Below, in pieces: positions 273-54,800 of a stretch of DNA of 64,000 nt. The DNA lies in the NCBI RefSeq assembly GCF_035084215.1, contig NC_090357.1, positions 11,904,001-11,968,000 of the forward strand, read 5' to 3'. Position 1 is the first letter of the stretch, and each line of letters begins with the position of its first letter. The DNA is from Heptranchias perlo (taxonomy: Eukaryota). Under the pieces are notes generated by a model that saw only the letters and a list, made by a program, of their open reading frames with translations, was not told where the DNA came from and made no database searches. A program made the position numbers and the translations under genes.

Positions 273-3200
273 CTGTGCAGGCCGCTATCTTGGCTGGTGA
301 CAAGTCAGAGAATGTACAAGACCTGCTATTATTGGACGTCACTCCTCTATCCCTGGGCATTGAAACAGCTGGTGGTGTAATGACTGTCCTGATCAAACGT
401 AACACCACCATTCCAACAAAGCAAACACAGACCTTCACCACCTACTCTGACAACCAGCCTGGCGTGCTCATCCAGGTGAGAACCTAATTTTTGTGTTGCA
501 TTTAAGCTGGGTGTGACTAAATTTTGGAGAAACGTTAATATGATTGAGCACATAAAAGATGTGCAGGATATTAACCACAGTAACATGCATTTATATAGTG
601 TCTTTACGGAGAAAAACATCCGAAGGCACTGCAGAGGCATAAGGGAAATGATGAACACTGAGCCAGATATTGGGAGGAGTGACCAAAAGCTTGGTTGAAG
701 AGGTGGGTTTTAAGGAACTGCTTAAAGGAAGAAGTAAGTGGCGAAGCAGAGGGGTTTAGGGAGGGAAATCCATGCCACAAGACAATCTGAGGAATAGGGA
801 GGAGGTGTTGTAGGACTACTACAAGCAGTTACAGATAAAGTGTCTTGAGAATTTTAAATTTAAGGTGTTGGGACCAAAATCTAATGTAATTTGGCATGGA
901 ACATGCTGATGGGAGAGCAGGATTTGGTGCTGGATAGGATATGAACAGCAGAGTTTTGGATGAGTTGAAGTTTACTAAGGGTGGAGGATAGGTGGTTGGC
1001 CAGGAGAACATTTAAGTAGTTCTTTCTGTGGGTGACACAGGCATGGCTCAGGGTTTTAGTGGCAGATGCATAGAGGCTGTTGATGCTACAGAAATGAAAA
1101 TGTTTTTTTTTGTGATGGTGAGGATATGGGGTCAGAACCTGAGCTTGGCCTCATGTTAAAATGGAATGCTGTAGTTGTCATGATTTTAGACAGTACATTT
1201 CTTTGTGACCAATAAGTTTAATTTTCTCCCTACCTTCTGATGGTTGATGTTGTACTACATGGAGTGCTAGTCTTCTCATTGTTTGCCAATGTAGCTCTTT
1301 TTCATGCCACTCTTCTATGGGCTGTGACTATTGGACTGGCTAGTTAGAATACTAGCATTGCAGCTGAGTTGGAGCTCTCCTTGCCCAATATTCACCATTG
1401 CAATTTCCAGGAGGAGCCATACATCAAAGTTTGATTATGATAAAGATTGGTGGCACAGTAAGTAGGGTAGACAGGAACATATAATTACAAAGATAGATGA
1501 AATGAGTAGGCAAAACTGGCAGGTGGATTTCAAAGCAGGTAAGTGAGGTCATCCATTTTGAACCAAAAAAGATGGATCTAAGTTTTTTTAAATGGCGAAA
1601 AATCAGGAATCGTGGAGGTCCAAGAGATTTAGGGTCCATGTACACAATAAAATGTACTTGTTGGGTACAAAAAAAATCAAAGGCTAATGGAATGTTAGCC
1701 TTTATATCTAGAGGGCTGGAATATAATGGGGAGGAAGTTTTGCTACCACTATTCAAAGCCTCAGTTCGACCACATCTGGACTACTGGGCATCGCAACTTA
1801 GAAATGATATATTGGCCTTGGAAGGAGTGCAGTGCAGATTCACTAGAATGTTACCTGGGCTCCGAGTTAGATTGAGGAGAGATTACACAAAGTAGGCTTA
1901 TATTACCTGGAATATGGAAGGTTAAGGGGTGATTTGATTGAGGTTTTTAGGATTTTGAAAGGAATTGATAGGGTAGATGGAGAAACTTTTTCTGCTGGTG
2001 GGGGAGTCTAGGACAAGAGAGCATAACCTTAAAATCAGAGCCAGGCTATTCAGAGAAGTTAGGAAACACTTCATGCAAAAAGGGTGGTAGAAGTTTGGAA
2101 CACTCAAAGCAGTAGCTGCTAACTCAATTTTTAAATCTGAGATTGATTGTTTTGTTTTTTGCAAGCCAAGGGTATTGAGCCAAGGTGGGTGAATGGAGTT
2201 AGGATACAAACCAACCATGATCTCCAGAGCGGAACGGGCTGAATGGCTTTCTCCTATACCAGTGTCTCCATTGCATCTGTTGTGATTATGCCACCTTCCA
2301 CACTAGTGTTTCTGATATATCTTTCCTCAACTGAGGTTTCCCCTCACTTTGATGGGGCCTACTCCTGTTTGTGTTCCTAAATATCAATCAAGAGCAGGAA
2401 GTCTGGTTTCCCTCTCCCCTCCTGAGTTTAAAGGTGGAGCCAGGTTTAACATCTGTTGCAGCCTGGCTGCAAGCAGATGCAACAGACTGGGGAGTGAACC
2501 TGGGAGTTTGTTTTGCATGGCTTATCAAGTTGCCAGAGGGTGCCTTTACAGTGGGCCAGGAGAGGTTCACCCATGTGTGGGACAAATTTGTCAAGAATGA
2601 AGTGAAAATATTCACACCACTGACTTTAACAGTGGGCTATTTTTTTTACTTAGTCTTCCTTGCAATTGCATTAAATAATTGAGTCCTTTGGTCTTGAGCC
2701 AAGTGACAATTGCACACCTTTTTTATAATTTAGCTGTTGAACCAACTTAAGGAAGCATTTGTATACATGTTAAATGTATATGCAGTATCTGGAAGTTGAA
2801 TGAAGCCACTGATTTCATCCCCCTGTATGATGCATGTGTCTATAAACTTTCAATTAATGCACTTGTTTTAATATAGGTATACGAGGGTGAACGAGCCATG
2901 ACTAAGGATAACAACTTGCTGGGCAAGTTTGAGCTGACTGGAATTCCACCTGCTCCACGGGGTGTGCCTCAAATTGAGGTGACATTTGATATTGATGCCA
3001 ATGGTATCTTGAATGTGTCTGCAGTGGATAAGAGCACTGGAAAGGAAAACAAGATTACCATCACAAATGACAAAGGTGAATCACTGCTTTGCCATTTTTA
3101 CTTTCAGTTAATGCAAATTGTTTAAAGTGCCTTCCCTAGTGTTGATCAAAACTTTTGATATTTGTTCCCTCTCCAAATCTGCTGTTGTCCCTGTTTTCCC

Positions 3201-6200: not shown

Positions 6201-6267
6201 AGAAGGCTTTCCTGGTGCTGCTCCTGGAGGAGGATCTTCTGGACCAACCATTGAAGAAGTTGACTAA
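273..6267 (+). CDS. HSPA8: Hsc70/HSPA8 tandem copy 1, last four coding exons only (5' part is upstream of the window)
   Basis: GT-AG exons 273..475 (203 nt), 2877..3075 (199), 4157..4389 (233), 6091..6267 (177). The first three sizes match vertebrate HSPA8 exons 6-8. Translation: [35 protein letters not shown]...[22 protein letters not shown]...[34 protein letters not shown]. Confidence 0.95.
577..1160 (-). mobile_element. Decayed L2-type LINE 3' fragment in an intron of HSPA8 copy 1
   Basis: Reverse complement resembles the L2 tail at 32555..33370 and 54585..54880 (tttgaccaagctttt...ctatataaatgca). Confidence 0.6.
1425..2260 (+). mobile_element. CR1/L3-type LINE 3' fragment (RT C-terminus + 3' UTR)
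   Basis: [15 protein letters not shown]...VRPHLDY...[15 protein letters not shown]; homologous to other CR1 copies in the window. Confidence 0.85.
3170..3746 (+). mobile_element. Decayed L2-type LINE RT fragment
   Basis: ggagtccccaaggatctatccttgg (PQGSILG), ctcatctatatgctg; parallels the L2 pieces at 9298..9760 and 32555. Confidence 0.7.
5020..5690 (+). mobile_element. Decayed CR1 LINE 3' fragment
   Basis: ANETLAFM...[11 protein letters not shown]...LVKPH, then CR1 3' UTR (ggctcgaggggctgaatggcct). Confidence 0.8.
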
Positions 6268-12733: not shown

Positions 12734-12932
12734 CTGTCCTTAACAGGCCTGGCCTATGTGTGACTCCAGTCCCACACCAAAGTGGGCTACTCTTTACTGC
12801 CCTCTGAAATGGCCTAGCAAGCTACTCAGAGGTTCAAGAAGGCCCACCATCACCTTCGCAAGGAAATCAGGGATGGACATTAAATGCCAGCCTTGTCAGC
12901 AACACACACATCCTGAGAATGAAGTAAAAAAA
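12734..12932 (+). mobile_element. Short non-autonomous element (Meta-type SINE core fused to LINE 3' tail)
   Basis: First half matches 23611..23703 (ggcctatgtgtgactccag...tgccctctgaaatggcctagcaagc); second half matches LINE tail 26540..26647 (ggttcaagaaggc...agggatgg...cacatcc...A-rich). Confidence 0.8.
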
Positions 12933-13049
12933 CACTGGGCCGGGTAAGATAATGAGGTACGTTCCCTGGCATGGCATAGATGGAAACTACTGATACCTAT
13001 CTGTTGAAATATTAATTATATTCATAAAATAGATGGAAAACGCAAGAAA

Positions 13050-14350: not shown

Positions 14351-14867
14351 TCTTTTCTATCCATATTGAATTTTTTGTCATTGTTCTTCCTACTTACAGA
14401 TTTTGTATGTCCAAAGATGGTGCTGAATCATTTTCAGGTAAATTCTTCAGACATCTCAAGTACACTTAAATAACATCTATATAAAATCATGAGTAAATGG
14501 CATGATATTTGTGAGATGTGAGGAAACATTTAGATACTGAAAATTCAATACATGAGAAAAAAAGGTTTGGCAAACATCAGTGCATAAAAGGATCCTTTTA
14601 AATTACTGCACACCTGTAACAATGACCTGCAATGTGGCTTTTTATTTTATACATGAAAAGTTTAGAATAATTTCCTCACTTTAAATAAATGTATTAGCTT
14701 ATTGTGTCATAAATACTGTAACGTGTACTATCCCTTACCACTTACTTCCTCTTCATTTGGACTGATCACTGAGAACGAGTGTTATGAATAATTAGCATAA
14801 AGTATGCTTTAATTTTGCTGCGTGCTTAGACTTAAGTAATGGCCCACGAGATCGAAAGGTAACACTA

Positions 14868-15070
14868 AATCAAAAGCAAAATACGACGGATGCTGGAAAT
14901 ATGAAATAAAAACAAAAAAGTGCTGGAGAAGCTCAGCAAGTCAGGCAGCATCTGTGGAGAAAGAAACAGAGTTCACGTTTCAGGTCGAAGACCTTTCGTC
15001 AGAAGTCTTGTTTCTTTCTCCACAGATGCTGCCTCACTTGCTGAGCTTCTCCAGCATTTTCTGATTTTCT
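14868..15070. mobile_element. Small fold-back (inverted-repeat) element enclosing a degenerate hammerhead motif, probably Penelope-derived
   Basis: 48-bp arms 14921..14968 and 15009..15056 with one mismatch; minus strand of the loop reads CTGACGA-A-AGGTC-TTC-GACCT-GAAA-CGTG. Confidence 0.75.
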
Positions 15071-16811: not shown

Positions 16812-20982
<4,171 letters not shown>

Positions 20983-22002: not shown

Positions 22003-22905
22003 AGTAAGATACTGTAACCATGGTTCAAATGCCATTGGATGTTCTCCCTTTGATTTTACTTAACATGACAATAAGCTGTTTGGCCCAAGTAGGCTCTGAT
22101 TATCCATGCATGATGGCCTAATCGTATATATCCACCCTGTTCTCCCTTACAGGCTCCTATCTAACCCAGTACTTAATAGTGACAGTCTGCTTCGATCATA
22201 ACTTTAGTAGTGCACTCAACTTCCGAATCCTCTTAAGTTGTTGCTCCTACACATTTCTACGTTAACATTTAATCTAGATATGACCCCTTACCACTGGAAA
22301 TCTGTTTCTATCTACTCTGGCCCTTGGGTTTTTTTAAACGCTTGAATCGAATCACCTCTGGTTTTCATTACAACAATCAAGTCTTTTTCCGTGCTGCGCT
22401 CCAATCTGCCTCCTATTGCCACCATGGATGCAGTCTGTGTGCAGCTGGGGATCTGCAGATTTCAAAGCAGCTGTCCACTTAAAAAAAAATCATTCTCAGG
22501 ATAAGGGTGTTGCTGGCAAGGCCAGCATTTACTGCTCATCCCCAGTTGCCTTCGAAGGTGGTGGTGAGACTTTTCATTGGAGCTCTGTCCTGGGTGGTGT
22601 CGAGCTTCTTAAGTGGCGCAGTTGCACCCATCTAGGCAAGTGGTGAGTATTCCATCACACTCTTGACTTGTGCCATGTAGTTAATAGAGAGGCTTTAGGG
22701 AGTCAGGAGGTGAATCATTTGCTGCAGAATGCCCTGCTGTAGTAACCATCGCATTTATGTAGCTGGTCCTGTTGAGTTTCTGATCAATGGCAACCCCCAG
22801 GATGTTGATGGTGGGTGAGTAGGCAATGGTGCTGCTATTGAATGTCAAACAGAGGTGGTTGGACTACCTTGTTCGAGATAGTCATTGTGTGGCATAAATG
22901 TTACT

Positions 22906-23471
22906 TGTAAGCAATCTTACAACACCAAGTTATAGTCCCAACAGTTTTATTTGAAAATCACAAGCTTTTGGAGCTTACCTCCTTCGTCAGGTGAGTGAGG
23001 TTCTAAAATCGCACAGCATATATTGGGCTGGGAGACAGTCACAGCAATCAAAGGTGCCATTGGTGTTCAGACAGGTTAGCCACGGAAAACATTATATCCC
23101 AGTATACTGAATACACAATGGCTCAGATTACACAGACAAAGAGAAAGAGAATGTCCAGTTGTATTAAAAACAGATAACCCCACCAGTGGGGAAAAAAAAG
23201 TTATCTGTTTTTAATACAACTGGACATTCTCTCTGCCTTTCGGGTCTCTTTTTTTCTCTCTTTGTCTGTGTAATCTGACCCATTGTGTATTCAGTATACT
23301 GGGATGTAATGTTTTCCGTGGCGAACCTGTCTGAACACCAATGGCACCTTTGATTGCTGTGACCGTCTCCCAGCCTAATATATGCTGTGCGATTTTAGAA
23401 CCTCACTCACCTGACGAAGGAGGTAAGCTTCAAAAGCTTGTGATTTTCAAATAAAACTGTTGCACTATAAT
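22906..23471. mobile_element. Penelope-pLTR-derived fold-back element with about 250-bp inverted arms, a hammerhead-like motif in each arm
   Basis: Left arm 22930..23178 and right arm 23200..23471 are near-perfect reverse complements apart from one indel, centred on ccccaccagtgggg. Arms are homologous to the Penelope 3' region 33853..34222. Confidence 0.9.
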
Positions 23472-23480
23472 TATTTTAAT

Positions 23481-26400
23481 TAAATTCAATTAATTAAAAT
23501 AAAAATCTGGAATTAAAATACTAGTATCAGTAATGATGGCCATGAAACTACCGGATTGTCGTAAAAACCCATCTGGTTCACTAATGTCCTTTAGGGAAGG
23601 AAGCCTGTCGCCCTTACCCGGTCTGGCCTATATGTGACTTCAGACCCACAGCAATGTGGTTGATTCTTAATTGCCCTCTGAAATGGCCTAGCAAGCCACT
23701 CAGTTGTAAAATCTCGCTACGAAAAGTCATAAGAATAAAACCGGACGGACCACAAGGCACCGGACACGACAACGGCAAAACACCAAGCCCAGTCGACCCT
23801 CCAAGGTCCTCCTTACTAACATCTGGGGACTTGTGCCAAAATTGGGAGAGCTGTCCCACAGACTAGTCAAGCAACAGCCTGACATAGCCATACTCACAGA
23901 ATCATATCTTTCAGCCAACGTCCCAGACTCTTCCATCACCATCCCTGGGTATGTCCTGTCCCACCGGCAGGACAGACCCACCAGAGGTGGCGGTACAGTG
24001 ATATACAGTCAGGAGGGAGTGGCCCTGGGAGTCCTCAACATTGACTCTGGACCCCATGAAGTCTCATGGCATCAGGTCAAACATGGGCAAGGAAACCTCC
24101 TGCTGATTACCACCTACCGTCCTCCCTCAGCTGATGAATCAGTCCTCCTCCATGTTGAACACCACTTGGAGGAAGCACTGAGGGTAGCAAGGGCACAAAA
24201 TGTACTCTGGGTGGGGGACTTCAATGTCCATCACCAAGAGTGGCTCGGTAGCACCACTACTGACCGAGCTGGCCGAGTCCTGAAGGACATAGCTGCTAGA
24301 CTGGGTCTGCGGCAGGTGGTGAGCGAACCAACACGAGGGAAAAACTTACTTGACCTCATCCTCACCAATCTACCTGTCGCAAATGCATCTGTCCATGACA
24401 GTATTGGTAGGTGTGACCACCGCACAGTCCTCGTGGAGATGAAATCCCGTCTTCGCACTGAGGACACCATCCAACGTGTTGTGTGGCACTACCACCGTGC
24501 TAAATGGGATAGATTCAGAACAGATCTAGCAGCTCAAAACTGGGCATCCATGAGGCGCTGTGGGCCATCAGCAGCAGCAGAATTGTATTCCAGCACAATC
24601 TGTAACCTCATGGCCCGGCATATTCCTCACTCTACCATTACCAACAAGCCAGGGGATCAACCCTGGTTCAATGAGGAGTGTAGAAGAGCATGCCAGGAGC
24701 AGCACCAGGCGTACCTAAAAATGAGGTGCCAACTTGGTGAAGCTACAACTCAGGACTACATGCATGCTAAACAGCGGAAGCAACATGCAATAGACAGAGC
24801 TAAGCGATTCCACAACTAACGGATCAGATCAAAGCTCTGCAGTCCTGCCACATCCAGTCGTGAATGGTGGTGGACAATTAAACAACTAACGGGAGGAGGA
24901 GGCTCTGCAAACATCCCCATTCTCAATGATGGCGGAGTCCAGCACGTGAGTGCAAAAGACAAGGCTGAAGCGTTTGCAACCATCTTCAGCCAGAAGTGCC
25001 GAGTGGATAATCCATCTCAGCCTCCTCCCGATATCCCCACCATCACGGAAGCCAGTCTTCGGCCAATTCGATTCACTCCACGTGATATCAAGAAACGGCT
25101 GAGTGCACTGGATACAGCAAAGGCTATGGGTCCCGACAACATCCCAGCTGTAGTGCTGAAGACTTGTGCTCCAGAACTAGCTGCGCCTCTAGCCAAGCTG
25201 TTCCAGTACAGCTACAACACTGGCATCCACCCGACAATGTCGAAAATTGCCCAGGTATGTCCTGTCCACAAAAAAAAGCAGGACAAATCCAATCCGGCCA
25301 ATTACCGCCCCATCAGTCTACTCTCAATCATCAGCAAAGTGATGGAAGGTGTTGTCGACAGTGCTATCAAGCAGCACTTACTCACCAATAAACTGCTCAC
25401 CGATGCTCAGTTTGGGTTCCGCCAGGACCACTCGGCTCCAGACCTCATTACAGCCTTGGTCCAAACATGGACAAAAGAGATGAATTCCAGAGGTGAGGTG
25501 AGAGTGACTGCCCTTGACATCAAGGCAGCATTTGACCGAGTGTGGCACCAAGGAGCCCAAGTAAAATTGAAGTCAATGGGAATCAGGGGGAAAACTCTCC
25601 AGTGGCTGGAGTCAAACCTGGCACAAAGGAAGATGGTAGTGGTTGTTGGAGGCCAGTCATCTCAGCCCCAGGGCATTGCTGCAGGAGTTCCTCAGGGCAG
25701 TGTCCTTGGCCCAAACATCTTCAGCTGCTTCATCAATGACCTTCCCTCCATCATAAGGTCAGAAATGGGGATGTTCGCTGATGACTGCACAGTGTTCAGT
25801 TCCATTCGCAACCCCTCAGATAATGAAGCAGTCCGAGCCTGCATGCAGCAAGACCTGGACAACATCCAGGCTTGGGCTCATAAGTGGCAAGTAACATTCG
25901 TGCCAGATAAGTGCCAGGCAATGACCATCTCCAACAAGAGAGAGTCTAACCACCTCCCCTTGACATTCAACGGCATTACCATCGCCGAATCCCCCACCAT
26001 CAACATCCTGGGGGTCACCATTGACCAGAAACTTATCTGGACCAGCCATATAAATACTGTGGCTACGAGAGCAGGTCAGAGGCTGGGTATTCTGCGGCGA
26101 GTGACTCACCTCCTGACTCACCAAAGCCTTTCCACCATCTACAAGGCACAAGTCAGGAGTGTGATGGAATACTCTCCACTTGCCTGGATGAGTGCAGCTC
26201 CAACAACACTCAAGAAGCTCGACACCATCCAAGATAAAGCAGCCCGCTTGATTGGCACCCCATCCACCACTGTGGCTGCAGTGTGCACCATCCACAGGAT
26301 GCACTGCAGCAACTCGCCAAGGCTTCTTCGACAGCACCTCCCAAACCCGCGACCTCTACCACCTAGAAGGACAAGGGCAGCAGGCGCATGGGAACAACAC

Positions 26401-26647
26401 CACCTGCACGTTCCCCTCCAAGTCACACACCATCCCGACTTGGAAATATATCGCCGTTCCTTCATTGTCGCTGGGTCAAAATCCTGGAACTCCCTTCCTA
26501 ACAGCATTGTGGGAGAATCGTCACCACACGGACTGCAGCGGTTCAAGAAGGCGGCTCACCACCACCTTCTCGAGGGCAATTAGGGATGGGCAATAAATGC
26601 CGGCCTTGCCAGCGACGCCCACATCCCGGGAACGAATAAAAAAAAAA
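23481..26647 (+). mobile_element. Near full-length young single-ORF non-LTR retrotransposon (APE endonuclease + RT; CR1/Zenon-like), with poly(A) tail
   Basis: One frame from about 23710 to 26583, broken only by TAA 24817..24819. APE motifs LLTNIWGL, ILTESYL, YRPP, VGDFN, LDLIL, CDH. RT motifs [47 protein letters not shown]. Poly(A) ends at 26647. Confidence 0.95.
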
Positions 26648-26999
26648 CATTTATCCACTCCAGTCCATCACCGGCATCTCCACATCATAAATATTACTTG
26701 TCACTTAACCGCCCAAGCGTGAATGTTGTCAATGTCTTGCTGCATGTGGGTATGGACTACTTCATTATCAGGAATTGCGAATGGAGCTGAACACTGCAAT
26801 CATCAGCAAACAGCCCCACTTCTGATTTAATGATGGCAGAAAGGTCATTGATGAAGCATCTGAGAGATAGTTGGGCCTTGGACGTTGCCATGAGGAACTC
26901 CTGCAGCGATGTCCTGGGACTGAGATAACATGCTGGATTGTTGCCAGCAAGCAAGTTAAGCTTCCATAATGTCACAAAGGATAGCTAAAGACTTGACAG

Positions 27000-33370: not shown

Positions 33371-33902
33371 TGTTGCTTTGCATGTAATTTTCTCCAGTAT
33401 CTGATTGGTGGCAATAGAACTGCTAGAATGTAAACTTTTGCTCATATATAGATCAAATGTAGTTCACTGAAGTCATATTTCATGAGCGCCATGTCATAGA
33501 CTCAACAATACAGCTCATGGTATAAAAAAAATTGTTGTGCATTCGCAGTCTTTCATGCATACTTTCAACAGTAAGTGTTTGGATAATGGGCAGGACTATA
33601 CCCTACAATTAGAAGTTAGTTAAGTCAAGGTTACTTTATCTCAAGAATGATGATTCATAATGCAGCCCGGGGGCACTTTGAATTGGTGTATTAATGTATT
33701 GCACCATAGAATAACCAAGATGGTTCAGGTTCCATCTTGATCTTGGCTCGGTCACTAGGGAGGTGTCGAGTGGAGCTCAGGAACTGTTCCAGATGGTAAC
33801 TGTGAAAGGAGTGCCAAAGTATGAGTCAAGCTATACCTGTACTTGTATCAAATGTAAGGAGTCTTACAACACCAGGTTATAGTCCAACAGCTTTATTTGA
33901 AA

Positions 33903-33939
33903 TCACAAGCTTTCGGAGCTTTCCTCCTTCGTCAGGTGA
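33903..33939 (-). ncRNA. Minimal hammerhead ribozyme in the Penelope 3' pLTR
   Basis: Minus strand: TCAC-CTGACGA-A-GGAG-gaaag-CTCC-GAAA-GC-TT-GTGA. Complete CUGANGA/GAAA/UH core, stems I and II, palindromic AAGCTT stem III. Confidence 0.85.
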
Positions 33940-35831
33940 GTGTAGGATTCCATAAAGGTACAGCATAAATAGTCAGAGAACAATGCCTGGTGATTACAGA
34001 TAATCTTTCCAACTGCCCGTTATCACACCTCGGCAGAGATATAATCAAAGCAATCAAAGGAGTGGAATGGTGTTCAGACAGAGAAACATTACATACAAGA
34101 CTACTGAATACACAACCGGTCAGAACACAAAGACAGAGAGAGAGAGAGACACCCGAAAGGCAGAGAAAGAGAGAGAATGACCAGTTGTATTAAAAACAGC
34201 TAACTTTTTTTCACTGGTGGGGTTACATGTAGCGTGACATGAACCCAAGATCCCGGTTGAGGCCGTCCTCATGGGTGCGGAACTTGGCTATCAATTTCTG
34301 CTCGACAATTTTGCGTTGTCGTGTGTCTTGAAGGCCGCCTTGGAGAACGCTTACCCGCAGATCGGAGGCTGAATGTCCTTGACTGCTAAAGTGTTCCCCG
34401 ACTGGGAGGGAACCCTCCTGTCTGGCGATTGTTGCGCGGTGTCCGTTCATCCGCTGTCGCAGTGTCTGCATGGTCTCGCCGATGTACCATGCTCCAGGGC
34501 ATCCTTTCCTGCAACGTATGAGGTAGACAACGTTGGCCGAGTCGCAGGAGTATGAATCATGTGCCTGGTGGGTGGTGTCCTCTCGTGTGATGGTGGTATC
34601 TGTGTCGATGATCTGGCATGTCTTGCAGAGGTTGCTGTGGCAGGGTTGTGTGGTGTCGTGGACACTGTTCTCCTGAAAGCTGGGTAATTTGCTGCGAACT
34701 ATGGTCTGTTTGAGGTTAGATGGCTGTTTGAAGGCGAGTACTGGAGGCGTGGGGATGGCCTTAGCGAGGTGTTCGTCGTCATCGATGACATGTTGAAGGC
34801 TGCGAAGAACATGGCGTAGTTTCTCCGCTCAGGGGAGGTACTGGACGACGAAGGGTACTCTGCTGGTTGTGTCCCGTGTTTGGCTTCTGAGGAGATCTAT
34901 GCGATTTTTCGCTGTGGCCTGTCGGAACTGTCGATCGACGAGTCGAGCATCATATCCCGTTCTTACAAGGGTGTCTTTCAGCGTCTGTAGGTGTCAATCG
35001 CATTCCTCCTTGTCTGAGCAGATCCTGTGTATTCGCAGGGCCTGTCCATAGGGGATGGCCTCTTTGACGTGGTTAGGGTGGAAGCTGGAAAAGTGGAGCA
35101 TCGTGAGGTTGTCCGTGGGCTTGCGGTAGAGTGAGGTGCTGAGGTGCCCATCTTTGATGGAGATTCGTGTGTCCAAGAATGAAACCGATTCTGAGGAGTA
35201 GTCCATGGTGAGTTTGATGGTGAGATGGAACTTGTTGATGTTATCGTGTAGTCTCTTCAGTGATTCTTCGCCGTGGGTCCATAGGAAGAAAATGTTGTTG
35301 ATGTATCTGGTGTATAGCGTTGGTTGGAGGTCCTGTGCAGTGAAGAAGTCGTGCTCGAACTTGTGCATGAAAATGTTGGCATATTGGGGTGCGAATTTGG
35401 TCTCCATGGCTGTTCCGTGTGTTTGGGTAAAGAACTGGTTATCGAAGGTGAAGACATTGTGATCCAGGATGAAGCAGATGAGTTGTAGGATGGCGTCTGG
35501 AGATTAGCTGTTGTTGGTGTTGAGTACTGAGGCTGTTGCAGCGATGCCGTCATCATGGGGGATACTGGTGTAGAGTGCCGAGACGTCCATCGTGGTGAGA
35601 AGTGTTCCTGGTTCAATTGGTCCGTGGGTGCTGAATTTTTGTAGGAAGTCTGTAGTGTCGCGACAGAAGCTGGGGGTTCCCTGTACGATGGGTTTCAGGA
35701 TGCTCTCGACGTATCCAGAGAGGTTCTCACACAGGGTTCTGTTGCCTGATACGATAGGACGTCCGGGTGTGTTGGCTTTGTGTATCTTTGGGAGGCAGTG
35801 GAAGTCTCCCACGCGGGGAGTACGTGGGATG

Positions 35832-35978
35832 ACAGTTACATGGGTAAGATGGGTATAGAGGGATATGGGCCAAGTGCAGGCAATTGGGACTAGCTTAGTG
35901 GTATAAACTGGGTGACATGGACATGTTAGGCTGAAGGGCCTGTTTCCATGTTGTAAACTTCTATGATTCTATGATTCT
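35832..35978 (+). mobile_element. CR1 3' tail inserted into the Penelope ORF
   Basis: Ends in ttctatgattctatgattct; flanked by g[g/t]gatga; Penelope coding sequence continues on both sides. Confidence 0.8.
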
Positions 35979-38239
35979 GTGATGAGAGCACGTAGGATGC
36001 TTTGAACGTCTGGATTGAAGGTCTTGATCAGTTTGTTGAGCTGGTGGGTGTGTTCTTTGGTCGGATCTGCGGGTAACCATCTGTAGCGTTCCTGGTTGTC
36101 CAGTTGTCGGTATGCTTCTTTGCAATAGTCCGTTCTGTTCGGTATGACGATGGCTCCTCCTTTGTCCGCTGGTTTGATGACGATGTTGCAGTTGGTCTTG
36201 AGAGCGTCGATGGCATTGCGTTGTGCTCGGGTGACATTCTGGATTGTCTTGTGAGTGCGGCTGATGAATCTGGCGTTGACGCATCTCCTGACTGCTTGAG
36301 CATACATGTCAAGCTTAGGGCAGCGACCCTCCGGAGGAGTCCAATTTGACTCTTTCTTCTTCGGTTGCTGTACCGCGGATCCCTCTGTCTGCTGTTCCGG
36401 ATCGTTGATTGTCTCATTGGGTTCGCTGCTGAAATCTTGGGATTTGTGGAAGAATTCCCGGAGCCTCATTCTCCTGATGAATTCCTCTGTGTCCGCCACG
36501 AGACCGATTGGGTCCATTTTGGTGGTGGGGCAGAAATTGAGCCCTCGGCTGAGAACTTCGATTTCGTCTGGTTGAAGGGTGTGGTCGGACAAATTGATGA
36601 TAACCTTCCCTGTGGTTGCAACCATGGTACCGGGGGAGGCTTGGTTGATGCTGGTGGTGATGCCGAGTTTCTCAAGCTTCCTGCTCTTGGTTTTCATATA
36701 GGCAGCGTAGTTCCGTTGCCTCGTCTGTTTGGCGGTGTCTCGTAGCTGGTCTGCTGTGTCCTGAGTACAGGTTGAGAGTATGGACTCTATCTTGGTTTCG
36801 AGGTTGCGGAGTCTGCTGTAGAGTTGGTGTACTTGTATCACACAGTACAATTACGCAGTAGTATTACGGAGATCTGAAAGCAAGTTGCCTAGCTGCCCTT
36901 TTAGCAGTGGAAATGTGCATGATGTAGATAAAACTTAAAGTAGTTTAAAAACAAAACTTTCAAAAAATAGTTTAGGAGTAAGTAATTTTTATTTGTGTAA
37001 AGTATGCAGGCAATAAATGTCTCCCATCTTGTGTTTAATGATTTTTTACCCCTTTGGTTTTCTCGGCCCTTTGTCAACTGTGGCTGAGAAGAGCATGCAA
37101 CCTTCGTCCAGGTTCCACTATCGCTATTCTTAACCAGGCACCTGAGGTGCACAAGAGAAGCTTGGGGCAACTCTCCCAGATATTTTCTCTCCCTGTCTGA
37201 GGGGAGTATCTAGCCTCCAATCAGCAGCTTCTCACGATTATTTAGTTGAGATCAAGAACTCAAAGAATGGGAATCAGATCAGTTTAATCTCAATCCATGG
37301 TGTACCGATTGCTGTTGCACCAAAATGTGACCCATACAAGAGGATCTTTATGAGCCATGGCTCATTCTCCAGTTGTTGATTTGTGCTACTGTTTAGTAAT
37401 AGTGATAAAAGAAATCAAACCCCTGCCTAAATTTTAATACAATAGATGCATGCAAAGATTGGATAATATTGGGCCTGTTCACTTGAACACTTCTGATGGA
37501 ATAATCCCAATTTCAAAGTTGACAATAACTACTTCTGGTAATGTCACTGGGGTTAGATTGGGTATTTGATAAATAGTTTTGCACGCTAATATTTCAAATT
37601 TCTGCTAGTTAAATTTCAAACTCAACTTTTGAATGGTCACTGTGGCTGGAGGTAGATTTGCAAATCATTTCTTTAGAGGAATTATGCCAAATCTATAATC
37701 TCACATTTCTTCTCATTGGCTTGTGCTTTTCTTCTGAATGAAAGAGGTGAAGGCTAGGGCAAAGTCCGTTGAGAATAGAAGATAGATTTAGGCCTGAAAT
37801 TTGCTCAGATCCCCTGAAAATCCATCTGAGACAAAGTAGAGCACACCACATATTCAAGTGAAACTACTGCAGAGACTCTATTTGCAGTGGAATTGGATGT
37901 GTTGAATATGTCACAAAACTGTTGTAGAAGTTATGGGAAGCATGGATACCAGTCTCACATGAAGAAGGGATCCCTAAGGATGAGGTATTCTGAAAGGCGA
38001 TAAGAAAAGTCATTGAAGGAATTACCTATGTCAGGGGAAGGGGATTGGGTTTCCGAGACTATAGACCCCAGTTGAACTGAATCAAGTGGAAGACAGATCA
38101 GAAATATTATATACACAGGAGTCCTGATTATTTTGAAGCTTACTTCTTGGCAGAGTATCTCCATCTGTCTTAAAGTGGCTAAATGCCACAACAATGTCAG
38201 GTTAAAATGGATGCCAATTGGAAACATAGATGGGTCAAT

Positions 38240-38412
38240 TAAAAATGTAAACAGAAAATGTTGGAAATACAGAGCTGGTCCATCAGCATCTGTAAAGAGA
38301 AAAGGCAGGTTAGTGTTTCAGATATCGACACCTTGTCACTACTCTTGTTTTCTCTTTGCAGCTAATGCCAGACCTGCTGTGCATTTCCAGCATTTTCTGT
38401 TTTTATTTCAGA
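38240..38412. mobile_element. Degenerate copy of the small fold-back family (as 14868..15070)
   Basis: aaacagaaaatgttggaaat...cagcatctg / gacctgctgtgcatttccagcattttctgtttttatttcaga. Confidence 0.6.
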
Positions 38413-51800: not shown

Positions 51801-54800
51801 ACAGTCTATCATAACAACATCTGAGTCCATTTCAAGATGATTCTGAACAAGAAATCAATGGGGATGCTATGCTCATGACTTTTTCTTCCTTCTATAATGT
51901 GCAACCTTCCTGGCTGTTTGTTATAAAAGTTCAACTAAAAAAAATAATGTATCACCCCTATGAAATGGAGAAAATGGGGTGTTCTGGGTGGCTTCATTCA
52001 AAGGCTAACGGCCAGCATGTGTAGGTAAAAATTCTTTTTCACTACAGCATTCTTTACATACCAACAGAATATAACTGAGTAGTAAGTTACAGTATAATGA
52101 AACAATGTGCACTTGCTGTTTTCAAAATGATAACTATGATTCTTTCTTTTGTGCTTCATTACCTCTTGGATTTGCATTGAGTATTTTAATTCAGAAATTA
52201 AAGATAAACTTATTTTCAGTGTTCCACTTTGGAAGAGGCAATAAAAGTGATAAAGCAGCAATTGATTTTTCGGGATGCCTGGAAGTCGTTGACTTTTGGG
52301 AATAAAATGCAAAAGGCTACAGCCCTCGCTCTCACTGGTCTTCATTGTGAGTACCATCTGATTACACGTTACTGTCTGTAAAGAGTTCTAAACTTAATTT
52401 TCCGCTTCTGGTTGAAAATATATGCATTGCTCGAAGTGAGCTTCTCTTCAATCCAGAAGGATTTTACAGTGCTAAAATTTTGATAATTCTAATTAAATAT
52501 TGATTAGCAACAAAAATGGCAAGAAAGCATTGAGGCAAAGTGCTTTCGACTGTGCGCTGATGCTAAACTTTTGCAATGTGAATGTGCCAGTGCTGTGATA
52601 ATTCACCAGTGTCCATGTCCATGACTTGCTGCCTTTTTTTAAGTTATGTATTTTATGCATCTCCTGACGATGCTTAATATTGATGCTATTTACATAAGAG
52701 GTCAAGGGTTCAGGGTCAGCCTTAGGATGTATTTATCCTATTAGTCATTCTCCCGTGGTACTGCATATGAGTAGTCGAGGGGAGGACGAAGGGAGGAGAG
52801 CAGAAGGAAAGGGAATGTGGGTGAAAATTCAGGGAGATACACAGTAATCAAGTATTTTTTTTGTTTGAGCATCCATTATAGTGTTCCTTATGATTTCTGT
52901 TTCGTGGATGGTGGAGAGACAAACAAACTAGTGTGGGTGGCAATGGGGGCAGCTGGCAGATCAAAGCAGTAAGCAGTAGGGCAGCATATAACTGGCCACA
53001 GATTGAGACTGACCAGCCGGTCAGAACAGGAAACAGGAGTGAATAAGCAGAACGGCCAGCAATGACAAAACATCAGCAGGGGAGTGTGAATACTAGGATG
53101 TATCTCAAGGCTGGTCAGTCAGCAGGGACGGACAACAGCAACAAGGAGCAACGGACCATAGATGAGAGGGAACATTTGGAAGGGGGTGGGGGATATCCAG
53201 CCATGGCTTACAGCTGGTTGGTTAGCAGGGTGGAGCGCACAATGAACAGGCTGGCAAATCAGAAGAGGATGGTGGACTGCAGCAGCTTGCAGCACGGACC
53301 AGTGTATGACAGTCAAAGACCATGAACAAATGGTGACCAGAGTTGGGCCACCACTATATAGGCATCGTACCAGAAGATTTTTTGGTTGTTGAATAAGTCA
53401 GAATAAATTTTCTTTCTTGTTTCTCCCAAACCTGTGTGCTGATTCTACTTACGAACATATAAAATTGACGGGCAGGAAAAGACCAGCTGGTTCCTCAAGC
53501 CTGCCCTGCACCATGATGGCCGAACTATCATGGCTAAACACTTCTTCCCTCCCCCGACCTTTCTCCTCACACCCATCCCTGCAGCCATGTAATCTCTTGG
53601 GAGAGGCAAAAAACAGAAAAAACCCAGGTGAAGAAACACACTGTAAAATTCCTCTCCAACCCCTTCAGGCAATCAAAACCAGTCCAGGAGATCACATGGA
53701 CCAAGCGTTATCAATAAAGACACTTACCTTCTATATGATGCGATCTCTGCCCAGTCAGGAACCGGTTCAGCTCCCTCCTGAAGGCAATGCAGAGAGTCAG
53801 CACCCACCGCACCAGCTGGCAGTGTGTTCCAGAGGCTCATAATTATCCGGGAAAAGAAGAACTGCCTAACATCCAGTCTATTCCTACTCTTCCATAGTTT
53901 AAGCGCATGTCCTCTGGTCCTTCACAACCTGTTAAACTGGAATAATCTATCAATAGGGCTGCTATCCAGCCCTTTAATTATTTTATAGACCTCCATCAGG
54001 TCACCTCTAAGTCTACGCTGCTTTAAAATAAATGAGTGTCACCTGACGAAGGAGAAAGCCTCCGAAAGCTTGTGATTTTCAAATAAAACTGTTGGACTAT
54101 AACCTGGTGTTGTAAGATTCCTTACATTATTAAAGGGGGCTCACAGAGCACCATTCTCAGTATAGGATAGGGAAAGCGTCGCACAGACTGGCTTGAAAGA
54201 AAATCACTCTGCAGCGCCATCATGTGGTTAGAGACTCAAACCAGCTTTTAAACTGTCCCAGTACCACTGGCACTCACATTAATGAAAAGATCCAATTAAA
54301 AGGCTATTGGTGTACCAGAAAAATGTAATATTTAGGTGTGGACACATTTAAAATGGGAAATCTCACAGAGGTGTTTACATATGAGTTTCCGTGGAAGATG
54401 TGACAAATGTACGTCATTTAATAATATACGTGTGTTCCTGATATTCATCTTCAGCTGGAAAGCAATTGTTGACATGGAATGGTAGTACACTTGTTGAGTT
54501 TATTTTCACTAGCACCACGTACTGAGTCATCAAATAATCGCATGCCATTTTTAAATGTACCATTAGCAGCTGAACTTAATTAGCCCTACAACCTTTTGAG
54601 ATCTCTGCGCTCCTCCAATTGTGGCCTCTTGCGCATCCCCGATTTTAATCGCTCCACCATTGGCGAATGTGCCTTCAGCGGCCTTCGCTTCTCTTAACCT
54701 CTCCGACTCTCTCCATCTCTTTCCTCCTTTAAGACGTTCCTTAAAACCTACCTCTTTGACCAAGCTTTTGGTTACCTGTTCTAACATCTCCTTATGTGGC

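What the first reader, a model, noticed from the sequence alone, without database searches (positions are those of the whole stretch)
22906..23471. Palindromic non-coding Penelope derivative with a hammerhead motif on each strand
Seen: a roughly 560-bp hairpin made of two inverted copies of the Penelope 3' pLTR, folded at ccccaccagtg, the sequence just past the GIY-YIG stop in the coding copy (34211..34222). Hammerhead motifs lie at 22958..22994 (-) and 23407..23443 (+). Both carry the same GAAA-to-AAAA core change. The element starts with the tgtaag..cttaca mini-hairpin and has a 16-bp TSD. Established: Penelope elements carry minimal hammerheads and often show inverted terminal repeats. Inference: this may be a non-autonomous, retrozyme-like fold-back family that yields long dsRNA hairpins from either strand. 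The shared mutation implies one arm was templated from the other.
Basis: partly seen in the sequence, partly recalled or inferred. Interest (0 to 1): 0.7.

Follow-up and report, generated by a model that had tools for sequence, protein, structure and literature searches.

The report
Dead-end Penelope retroelement hairpin insertion
This DNA hairpin is two back-to-back copies of the end of a Penelope jumping gene, later split by another transposon; it is an ordinary, likely one-off insertion whose self-cutting RNA motifs are likely dead, not a mobile family of its own.

Summary
The hairpin (about 250 paired bases, 21-nt loop), both hammerhead motifs and their shared G12A change are real. The element is longer than described: a 3.2-kb LINE splits its right arm, and the Penelope 'tail' and second target-site copy lie beyond it (26648-26701; 15 of 16 bases match). 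It is not an amplifying family. The junction has 9 genome-wide matches (up to 2 mismatches) against 2,176 normal junctions; 6 are fold-backs with arms only 70-82% like this one, and 3 are loop flips. Head-to-head arms with a tail on one side are this family's usual insertion form (58 of 80 sampled loci; one-sided tail in 51 of 53) and are published for Penelope elements. G12A is a recurring CpG change (75 against 1,518 copies) that should kill cleavage, and one hammerhead per strand cannot work as a retrozyme. The arms share four variants, so one template, but arm-length asymmetry favours two cDNAs primed from both cut strands over snap-back. The scan has noted this architecture before, in this and other genomes. 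Verdict: ordinary; mild mechanistic interest.

The parts
22893..22908 (+). Left copy of the target-site duplication (last 3 nt are also the element's first 3 nt)
   Evidence: 15/16 match to 26686-26701; old LINE is continuous across the two copies
22906..23178 (-). Left arm: tail-less Penelope pLTR copy, from pLTR position about +25 after the stop codon to the CTTACA end; 22-nt internal deletion
22906..22921 (.). tgtaag-caat-cttaca mini-hairpin, the tail-less end of the pLTR (likely the inner RT start site)
   Evidence: family ends; role inferred from PMC11167929
22958..22994 (-). Minimal type I hammerhead motif, G12A (22969)
23175..23203 (.). Head-to-head junction: TAAC (23175-23178, holds the ORF stop codon) / 21-nt loop / GTTA (23200-23203); 4-nt inverted microhomology
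23175..23470 (+). Right arm: pLTR from the stop codon on, cut at 23470 by the LINE
23407..23443 (+). Minimal type I hammerhead motif, G12A (23432) and a stem II change (23430)
23471..26647 (+). Later LINE insertion (AP endonuclease + RT, one in-frame stop, A-tail) that removed about 21 nt of the pLTR end
26648..26685 (+). Last bases of the pLTR and the 36-nt Penelope tail: the true 3' end of the insertion
   Evidence: 90-98% to tails at other loci
26686..26701 (+). Right copy of the target-site duplication (first 3 nt may be element sequence)
22490..22905 (-). Older LINE fragment that served as target, left half (continues at 26690-26929)
33850..36850 (-). Broken coding Penelope copy of another pLTR subtype (RT and C-terminal GIY-YIG pieces); reference only

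Best explanation
It is a single, heavily 5'-truncated Penelope insertion with the family's usual layout (target copy, tail-less pLTR backwards, pLTR forwards, tail, target copy), later split by a LINE, and likely built at insertion from two cDNAs primed on the two strands of a staggered cut and joined head to head at the TAAC/GTTA microhomology. Shown: layout, boundaries, target duplication, lack of sister copies, G12A. Inferred: the protein came in trans from a coding family member; both cDNAs were copied from one RNA, one from the tail start site and one from the CTTACA start site; both stopped near the stop codon. The copy is now likely inert: no ORF, both ribozymes likely dead, 3' end broken by the LINE. 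Any read-through transcript would fold into about 250 bp of dsRNA, a by-product and not a shown function.
For: Layout. Same layout is the family norm: 58 of 80 loci taken in order along contig C1 have an inverted partner; tail on exactly one arm in 51 of 53; a 10-18-bp target repeat at 50 of 53. Junction rare and not clonal: 5 exact and 9 with up to 2 mismatches, against 2,176 normal ORF/pLTR junctions; left arms of the other 8 matches are 70-83% like the window's over aligned columns; nearest relatives (94-97%) have other junctions, most with ORF sequence. One template: 4 shared variants; across 51 pairs rare shared variants 10 against 1.0 with shuffled partners (max 6 in 1,000). Two cDNAs: the tail-less arm reaches further 5' in 12 and the tailed arm in 7 of 36 clean junctions (difference of 10 nt or more; 17 ties); at this same junction the loop sits on the tailed arm in 4 loci (window included) and on the tail-less arm in 2. 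In vitro a Penelope protein cuts and extends both strands and starts RT at two sites that bound the tail (PMC11167929).
Against: The junction does recur (6 fold-backs), more than a uniform spread would give, so it is a minor hot spot rather than strictly unique. The window's four shared variants form a haplotype seen in no other copy examined, which fits arm-to-arm copying or later conversion as well as a lost source. Arm starts were read against one reference copy, so subtype indels and later deletions blur them; the loop can flip (3 matches), which weakens loop ownership as a test. Pattern searches miss copies with more than 2 changes in 24 bases (L004 has a nearby, different junction).
Confidence: 0.87

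Rival explanations
1. Same one-off insertion, but made by snap-back: one cDNA primed at the tail ran to the stop codon, folded its 3' GTTA onto TAAC 21 nt back and copied itself up to the CTTACA hairpin (self-priming, as proposed for Adineta elements). Confidence is for this step against two-cDNA priming.
For: In the window the loop is on the tailed arm; the junction folds as a small hairpin (z -3.1, partly by construction); four variants shared by both arms and by no other copy examined; one-sided tail follows naturally; PMC3846280 reads such junction palindromes as self-priming.
Against: A copy of a tailed first strand cannot reach further 5' than that strand, yet the tail-less arm is the longer in 12 of 36 clean junctions, and at this very junction the tail-less arm holds the loop in 2 of 6 loci. 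12 of 22 unpaired copies lack the tail, so the inner site seems to prime by itself.
Confidence: 0.3
2. A non-autonomous, retrozyme-like fold-back family that is transcribed, self-cleaves on either strand and is re-inserted as a unit.
For: Same junction at 5 other fold-back loci; target duplication present; hammerhead motif on each strand.
Against: Those loci differ in pLTR subtype, arm length and tail side; no sister of the window's arms has the junction. One hammerhead per strand, where retrozymes need two in tandem (10.64898/2026.07.22.740005); minimal hammerheads showed no cleavage as single motifs (PMC4209133); G12A slows cleavage 500-fold or far more (PMC2553840); the motifs are fully paired in the fold.
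Confidence: 0.03
3. A post-insertion inverted duplication (replication fold-back or repair) of a solo pLTR, unrelated to reverse transcription.
For: Short inverted microhomology at the junction; shared private variants; loop micro-inversions at the same site show DNA-level switching there.
Against: The left arm ends exactly at the family's CTTACA end without any flank, the target duplication encloses both arms, and most family insertions look the same.
Confidence: 0.05

Closest known systems
Endonuclease-bearing Penelope-like element insertions with inverted pLTR, 30-40-bp tail and TSD (Adineta Pen2a_Av, PMC3846280; general scheme, PMC8557442; passages read)
   Same: Inverted 5'-truncated copy next to the upstream pLTR, tail at one end only, TSD, short overlap at the junction, TATA-like box about 20 nt before a TCACT initiator-like motif.
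   Different: Both arms stop at or after the stop codon, so no ORF is left; split by a LINE; TSD up to 16 bp against 8-10 bp reported for Adineta.
Minimal hammerheads of metazoan PLEs (Cervera and De la Pena 2014, PMC4209133; parts 1-2 of 4 read)
   Same: CUGANGA, extra nucleotide before stem II, GAAA, palindromic AAGCUU stem III, short stem I; the paper already notes dual motifs 100-700 bp apart on opposite strands in Schistosoma.
   Different: Both copies here carry G12A.
Poseidon element PAc of Anolis (Frangieh et al. 2024, PMC11167929; parts 1-2 of 4 read)
   Same: pLTR hammerhead followed by an AC-rich stem-loop and tail; genomic ends at two fixed sites 36 nt apart.
   Different: The paper does not treat inverted arms in the parts read; nothing was assayed here.
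Non-LTR retrozymes (PMC7229834, search listing only; 10.64898/2026.07.22.740005, part 1 of 5 and passages)
   Same: Non-coding, pLTR-derived, type I hammerhead.
   Different: Retrozymes are head-to-tail tandems with two or more intact same-strand ribozymes and many like copies; this is head-to-head, single and mutated.

Membership tests
EN+ Penelope-like element insertion | Family encodes RT with C-terminal GIY-YIG endonuclease | tested here: inconclusive
   Pfam GIY-YIG E 3.4e-4 and 4.4e-4 (21 bits, cut-off 22.6), RVT_1 only E 0.21; YIDD in L019; CCHH-like residues recognised from recall. Order RT then endonuclease then pLTR is clear, curated cut-offs not reached on these broken copies.
EN+ Penelope-like element insertion | pLTR directly after the ORF, holding a minimal hammerhead | tested here: met
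EN+ Penelope-like element insertion | Inverted 5'-truncated copy at the 5' end | tested here: met
   58 of 80 family loci
EN+ Penelope-like element insertion | 30-40-bp tail at one end only | tested here: met
   36 nt at 26650-26685; 51 of 53 pairs
EN+ Penelope-like element insertion | Target-site duplication | tested here: met
   50 of 53 loci with 10-18 bp by the same rule
Non-LTR retrozyme | Tandem direct units with at least two same-strand hammerheads | tested here: not met
   one motif per strand, inverted
Non-LTR retrozyme | Intact catalytic core | tested here: not met
   G12A in both; effect from PMC2553840
Non-LTR retrozyme | Dispersed family of like copies | tested here: not met
Non-LTR retrozyme | Self-cleavage and circular RNA in vivo | not testable with these tools
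   only assembled contigs of runs guessed to be RNA were on hand

The most novel reading that the evidence does not exclude
The insertion, with thousands of relatives, is a fossil of twin priming: a Penelope dimer cuts both strands 12-16 bp apart and each end primes a cDNA on the same RNA, one from each of the two RT start sites, which explains the inverted arms and one-sided tail. The pile-up of arm ends just 5' of the hammerhead marks the RNA's 5' end, so the commonest product is a roughly 200-bp palindrome of the transcript's leader.
Probability: 0.55. Interest if true: 0.5.

Novelty: new member of a known kind. Interest (0 to 1): 0.22.

Why it matters
As a locus it matters little: one dead copy among thousands. 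As data it bears on an open point that PMC8557442 names, how Penelope elements form their tandem/inverted structures and one-sided tail. The genome holds a large natural sample of junctions (at least 2,674 head-to-head hammerhead stubs) that can tell two-strand priming from snap-back. It also warns that such hairpins can be mistaken for MITEs, microRNA precursors (weak Rfam hits) or retrozymes.

Tried and rejected
Rfam: no hammerhead family hit at E up to 5; only sub-threshold microRNA-precursor hits from the hairpin shape. Window's coding copy as source: rejected, other subtype. G12A as a family trait: rejected, 75 against 1,518 exact-motif copies, and the mirror C-to-T change is in 9 of the first 100 listed. 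Expression: no RNA holder on record; contigs of four runs of one sample, guessed to be RNA, cover the arms and LINE as repeat pieces, none of the 32 listed pieces spans the junction, and three unique-flank bins have no cover: no verdict on transcription, strand, editing or small RNAs. The protein atlas gave no answer. Literature searches listed no paper on Penelope fold-back families in sharks or on twin priming of Penelope elements; the library lacks most subscription journals and Repbase reports, and no supplements were read (those of PMC4209133 list further hammerhead families).

Full report
1. Setting. The window is G000:C36:11904001-11968000 of a 3.25-Gb genome; its repeats look shark-like (recalled, and so labelled in earlier notes). 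The finding lies about 1.9 kb past the stop codon of an HSP70 gene (stop at 20982; Pfam HSP70) that has two SNORD14 in introns, and past three poly(A)-like hexamers (21058, 21154, 21435).

2. Observation. The inverted repeat is real: arms 22929-23178 and 23200-23470 align with 9 substitutions, a 1-nt gap and a 22-nt gap; the + strand folds at -447.8 kcal/mol, z -49.7. The loop is 21 nt (23179-23199), closed by TAAC/GTTA; TAA is the stop codon of the family ORF. Hammerhead-like motifs lie where stated, and a core scan of the window found 5 motifs, these two with AAAA and three with GAAA. With GAAA the motif folds into stems I and II, with AAAA it does not (none of the four monomer folds is strongly better than shuffles except 54033-54085). 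No 16-bp repeat flanks 22906-23471. The right arm stops at 23470, a LINE follows (23471-26647; AP endonuclease and RT), then the last pLTR bases and a 36-nt tail (26648-26685), then a 15/16 copy of 22893-22908. The older LINE on either side is continuous across the duplication. Order of events, inferred from nesting: old LINE, Penelope insertion, young LINE with loss of about 21 nt of pLTR.

3. Is it a family? The normal ORF/pLTR junction has 2,176 exact matches. The fold-back junction has 5 exact matches and 9 with up to 2 mismatches. Of the 9, 6 are fold-backs (window, L148, L149, L150, L155, L156) and 3 are inversions of the loop alone in otherwise normal copies (L151; L153 and L154, two arms of one insertion). 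Within a locus arms are nearly identical, between loci they are different pLTR subtypes: 70-83% to the window's arm over aligned columns. The 40 scored nearest relatives of the arm are 94-97% identical; I mapped 28 loci of them (L027-L055 without the window's own, several being two views of one insertion): most join the pLTR to ORF sequence and none has this junction. So the junction is a small recurrent hot spot, set by a 4-nt inverted microhomology, not an amplified unit.

4. What the family does at insertion. I fetched 80 of the 81 loci formed by the first 100 listed hammerhead matches on contig C1. 58 of 80 have an inverted partner next to the 5' end; of 53 pairs with both arms reaching the pLTR end, 51 have the tail on exactly one arm, 1 on both, 1 on neither. 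50 of 53 loci tested have a 10-18-bp target repeat, 45 of them 12-16 bp (one mismatch allowed, no shuffle control). Junctions are spread from deep in the ORF to the hammerhead; 72 of 138 arm starts fall in the 20 nt around and just before the core (positions 220-239 after the stop; core at 234). The sample was chosen by a hammerhead match, so shorter anchor arms are excluded, but the bins upstream hold only 11, 2, 1, 1 and 2. Genome-wide, 2,674 loci have two hammerhead heads back to back within 30 nt, with varied centres and from several families. A TATA-like box and a TCACT motif precede this point, as PMC3846280 notes for Adineta pLTRs; that this is the transcript start is inferred.

5. The shared mutation. 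Against the majority of 28 related arms, both window arms share 4 changes (23342, 23344, 23387, 23432); 3 further changes are in the right arm only and 5 plus an insertion in the left only. No other pLTR copy held has the combination, and a pattern over the first two changes hits one other place, a different subtype. G12A alone is a CpG transition: 75 exact copies against 1,518 with G; CpG positions change 5 times as often as others (17 of 336 against 59 of 5,704). Across 51 pairs, arms share rare variants 10 times against 1.0 expected with shuffled partners, and share the subtype in nearly all. So one template per insertion; whether RNA or the other arm is not decided by this.

6. Mechanism. 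Frangieh et al. (PMC11167929; parts 1-2 of 4 read) show that a Penelope protein cuts and extends both strands, is predicted to be a dimer, starts RT at two sites that bound the tail, and does not need ribozyme cleavage in vitro. Two cDNAs primed from the two 3' ends of a staggered cut give exactly target copy, reverse arm, forward arm, target copy. Snap-back (self-priming, PMC3846280, passages) gives the same junction but requires the tailed arm to reach furthest 5'. At the window's junction the loop is on the tailed arm in L150, L155, L156 and the window (tail behind the LINE) and on the tail-less arm in L148 and L149. This favours two cDNAs; caveats are one reference for several subtypes, later deletions, and loop flips. 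For this one locus both routes remain possible.

7. Ribozyme and RNA. Each strand has one motif; minimal hammerheads showed no cleavage as single motifs and little as dimers (PMC4209133). G12 is the general base; G12A slows cleavage over 500-fold in minimal and about a million-fold in full-length ribozymes (PMC2553840, passages). In a transcript of either strand the motif is fully paired. Retrozymes are defined by tandem units with at least two complete motifs (10.64898/2026.07.22.740005). The dsRNA potential is real, but transcription of this locus was not shown either way.

8. Known or new. Inverted 5' copy, one-sided 30-40-bp tail and pLTR hammerhead are the textbook layout (PMC8557442, passages; PMC3846280), and opposite-strand hammerhead pairs 100-700 bp apart are in print for Schistosoma (PMC4209133). 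It is a new member of a known kind. The scan's own notes hold 58 findings with these words in at least 9 genomes and many in this genome; they agree but are not independent evidence. My reading before that look-up was already a one-off insertion with run-off palindromes; the arm-asymmetry test came after it. Interest 0.22; the twin-priming reading, not found in my searches, would merit about 0.5.

Noticed in passing
genome-wide; loci L068-L147: About 190-230-bp palindromes that fold just 5' of the hammerhead are the commonest product: both arms start at position 215 or later in 29 of 51 one-tailed pairs; 2,674 loci have head-to-head cores within 30 nt. Likely run-off at the transcript's 5' end.
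   Followed up: partly
window 14860-15070 and 38243-38408: Short palindrome of a second Penelope-like family with an intact minimal hammerhead (14978-15002, minus strand) at its fold and an extension on one side; an older decayed look-alike at 38243-38408.
   Followed up: partly
window 54039-54128: Tail-less single pLTR stub that begins at the hammerhead, core intact.
   Followed up: no
L151, L153, L154: The 18-25-nt loop between TAAC and GTTA is inverted in otherwise normal copies; in L153/L154 both arms of one insertion carry the flip, so it was likely in the template.
   Followed up: partly
window 2867-3077 and 19896-20106: Two neighbouring HSP70 genes (stops at 6267 and 20982) share a 211-bp block at 100% while other blocks are 75-88% alike: likely gene conversion.
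   Followed up: no
window 12738-12933: Short element that joins a 5' piece (like 23612-23703) to the 3' end (like 26584-26646) of the LINE; contigs show similar long skips. Likely a non-autonomous derivative of that LINE.
   Followed up: no
window 23471-23502: The LINE begins with an AT-only near-palindrome (87.5% self-complementary) and shows no target duplication of its own.
   Followed up: no
window 35830-35975: A roughly 145-bp insertion of another repeat interrupts the RT region of the coding Penelope copy.
   Followed up: no
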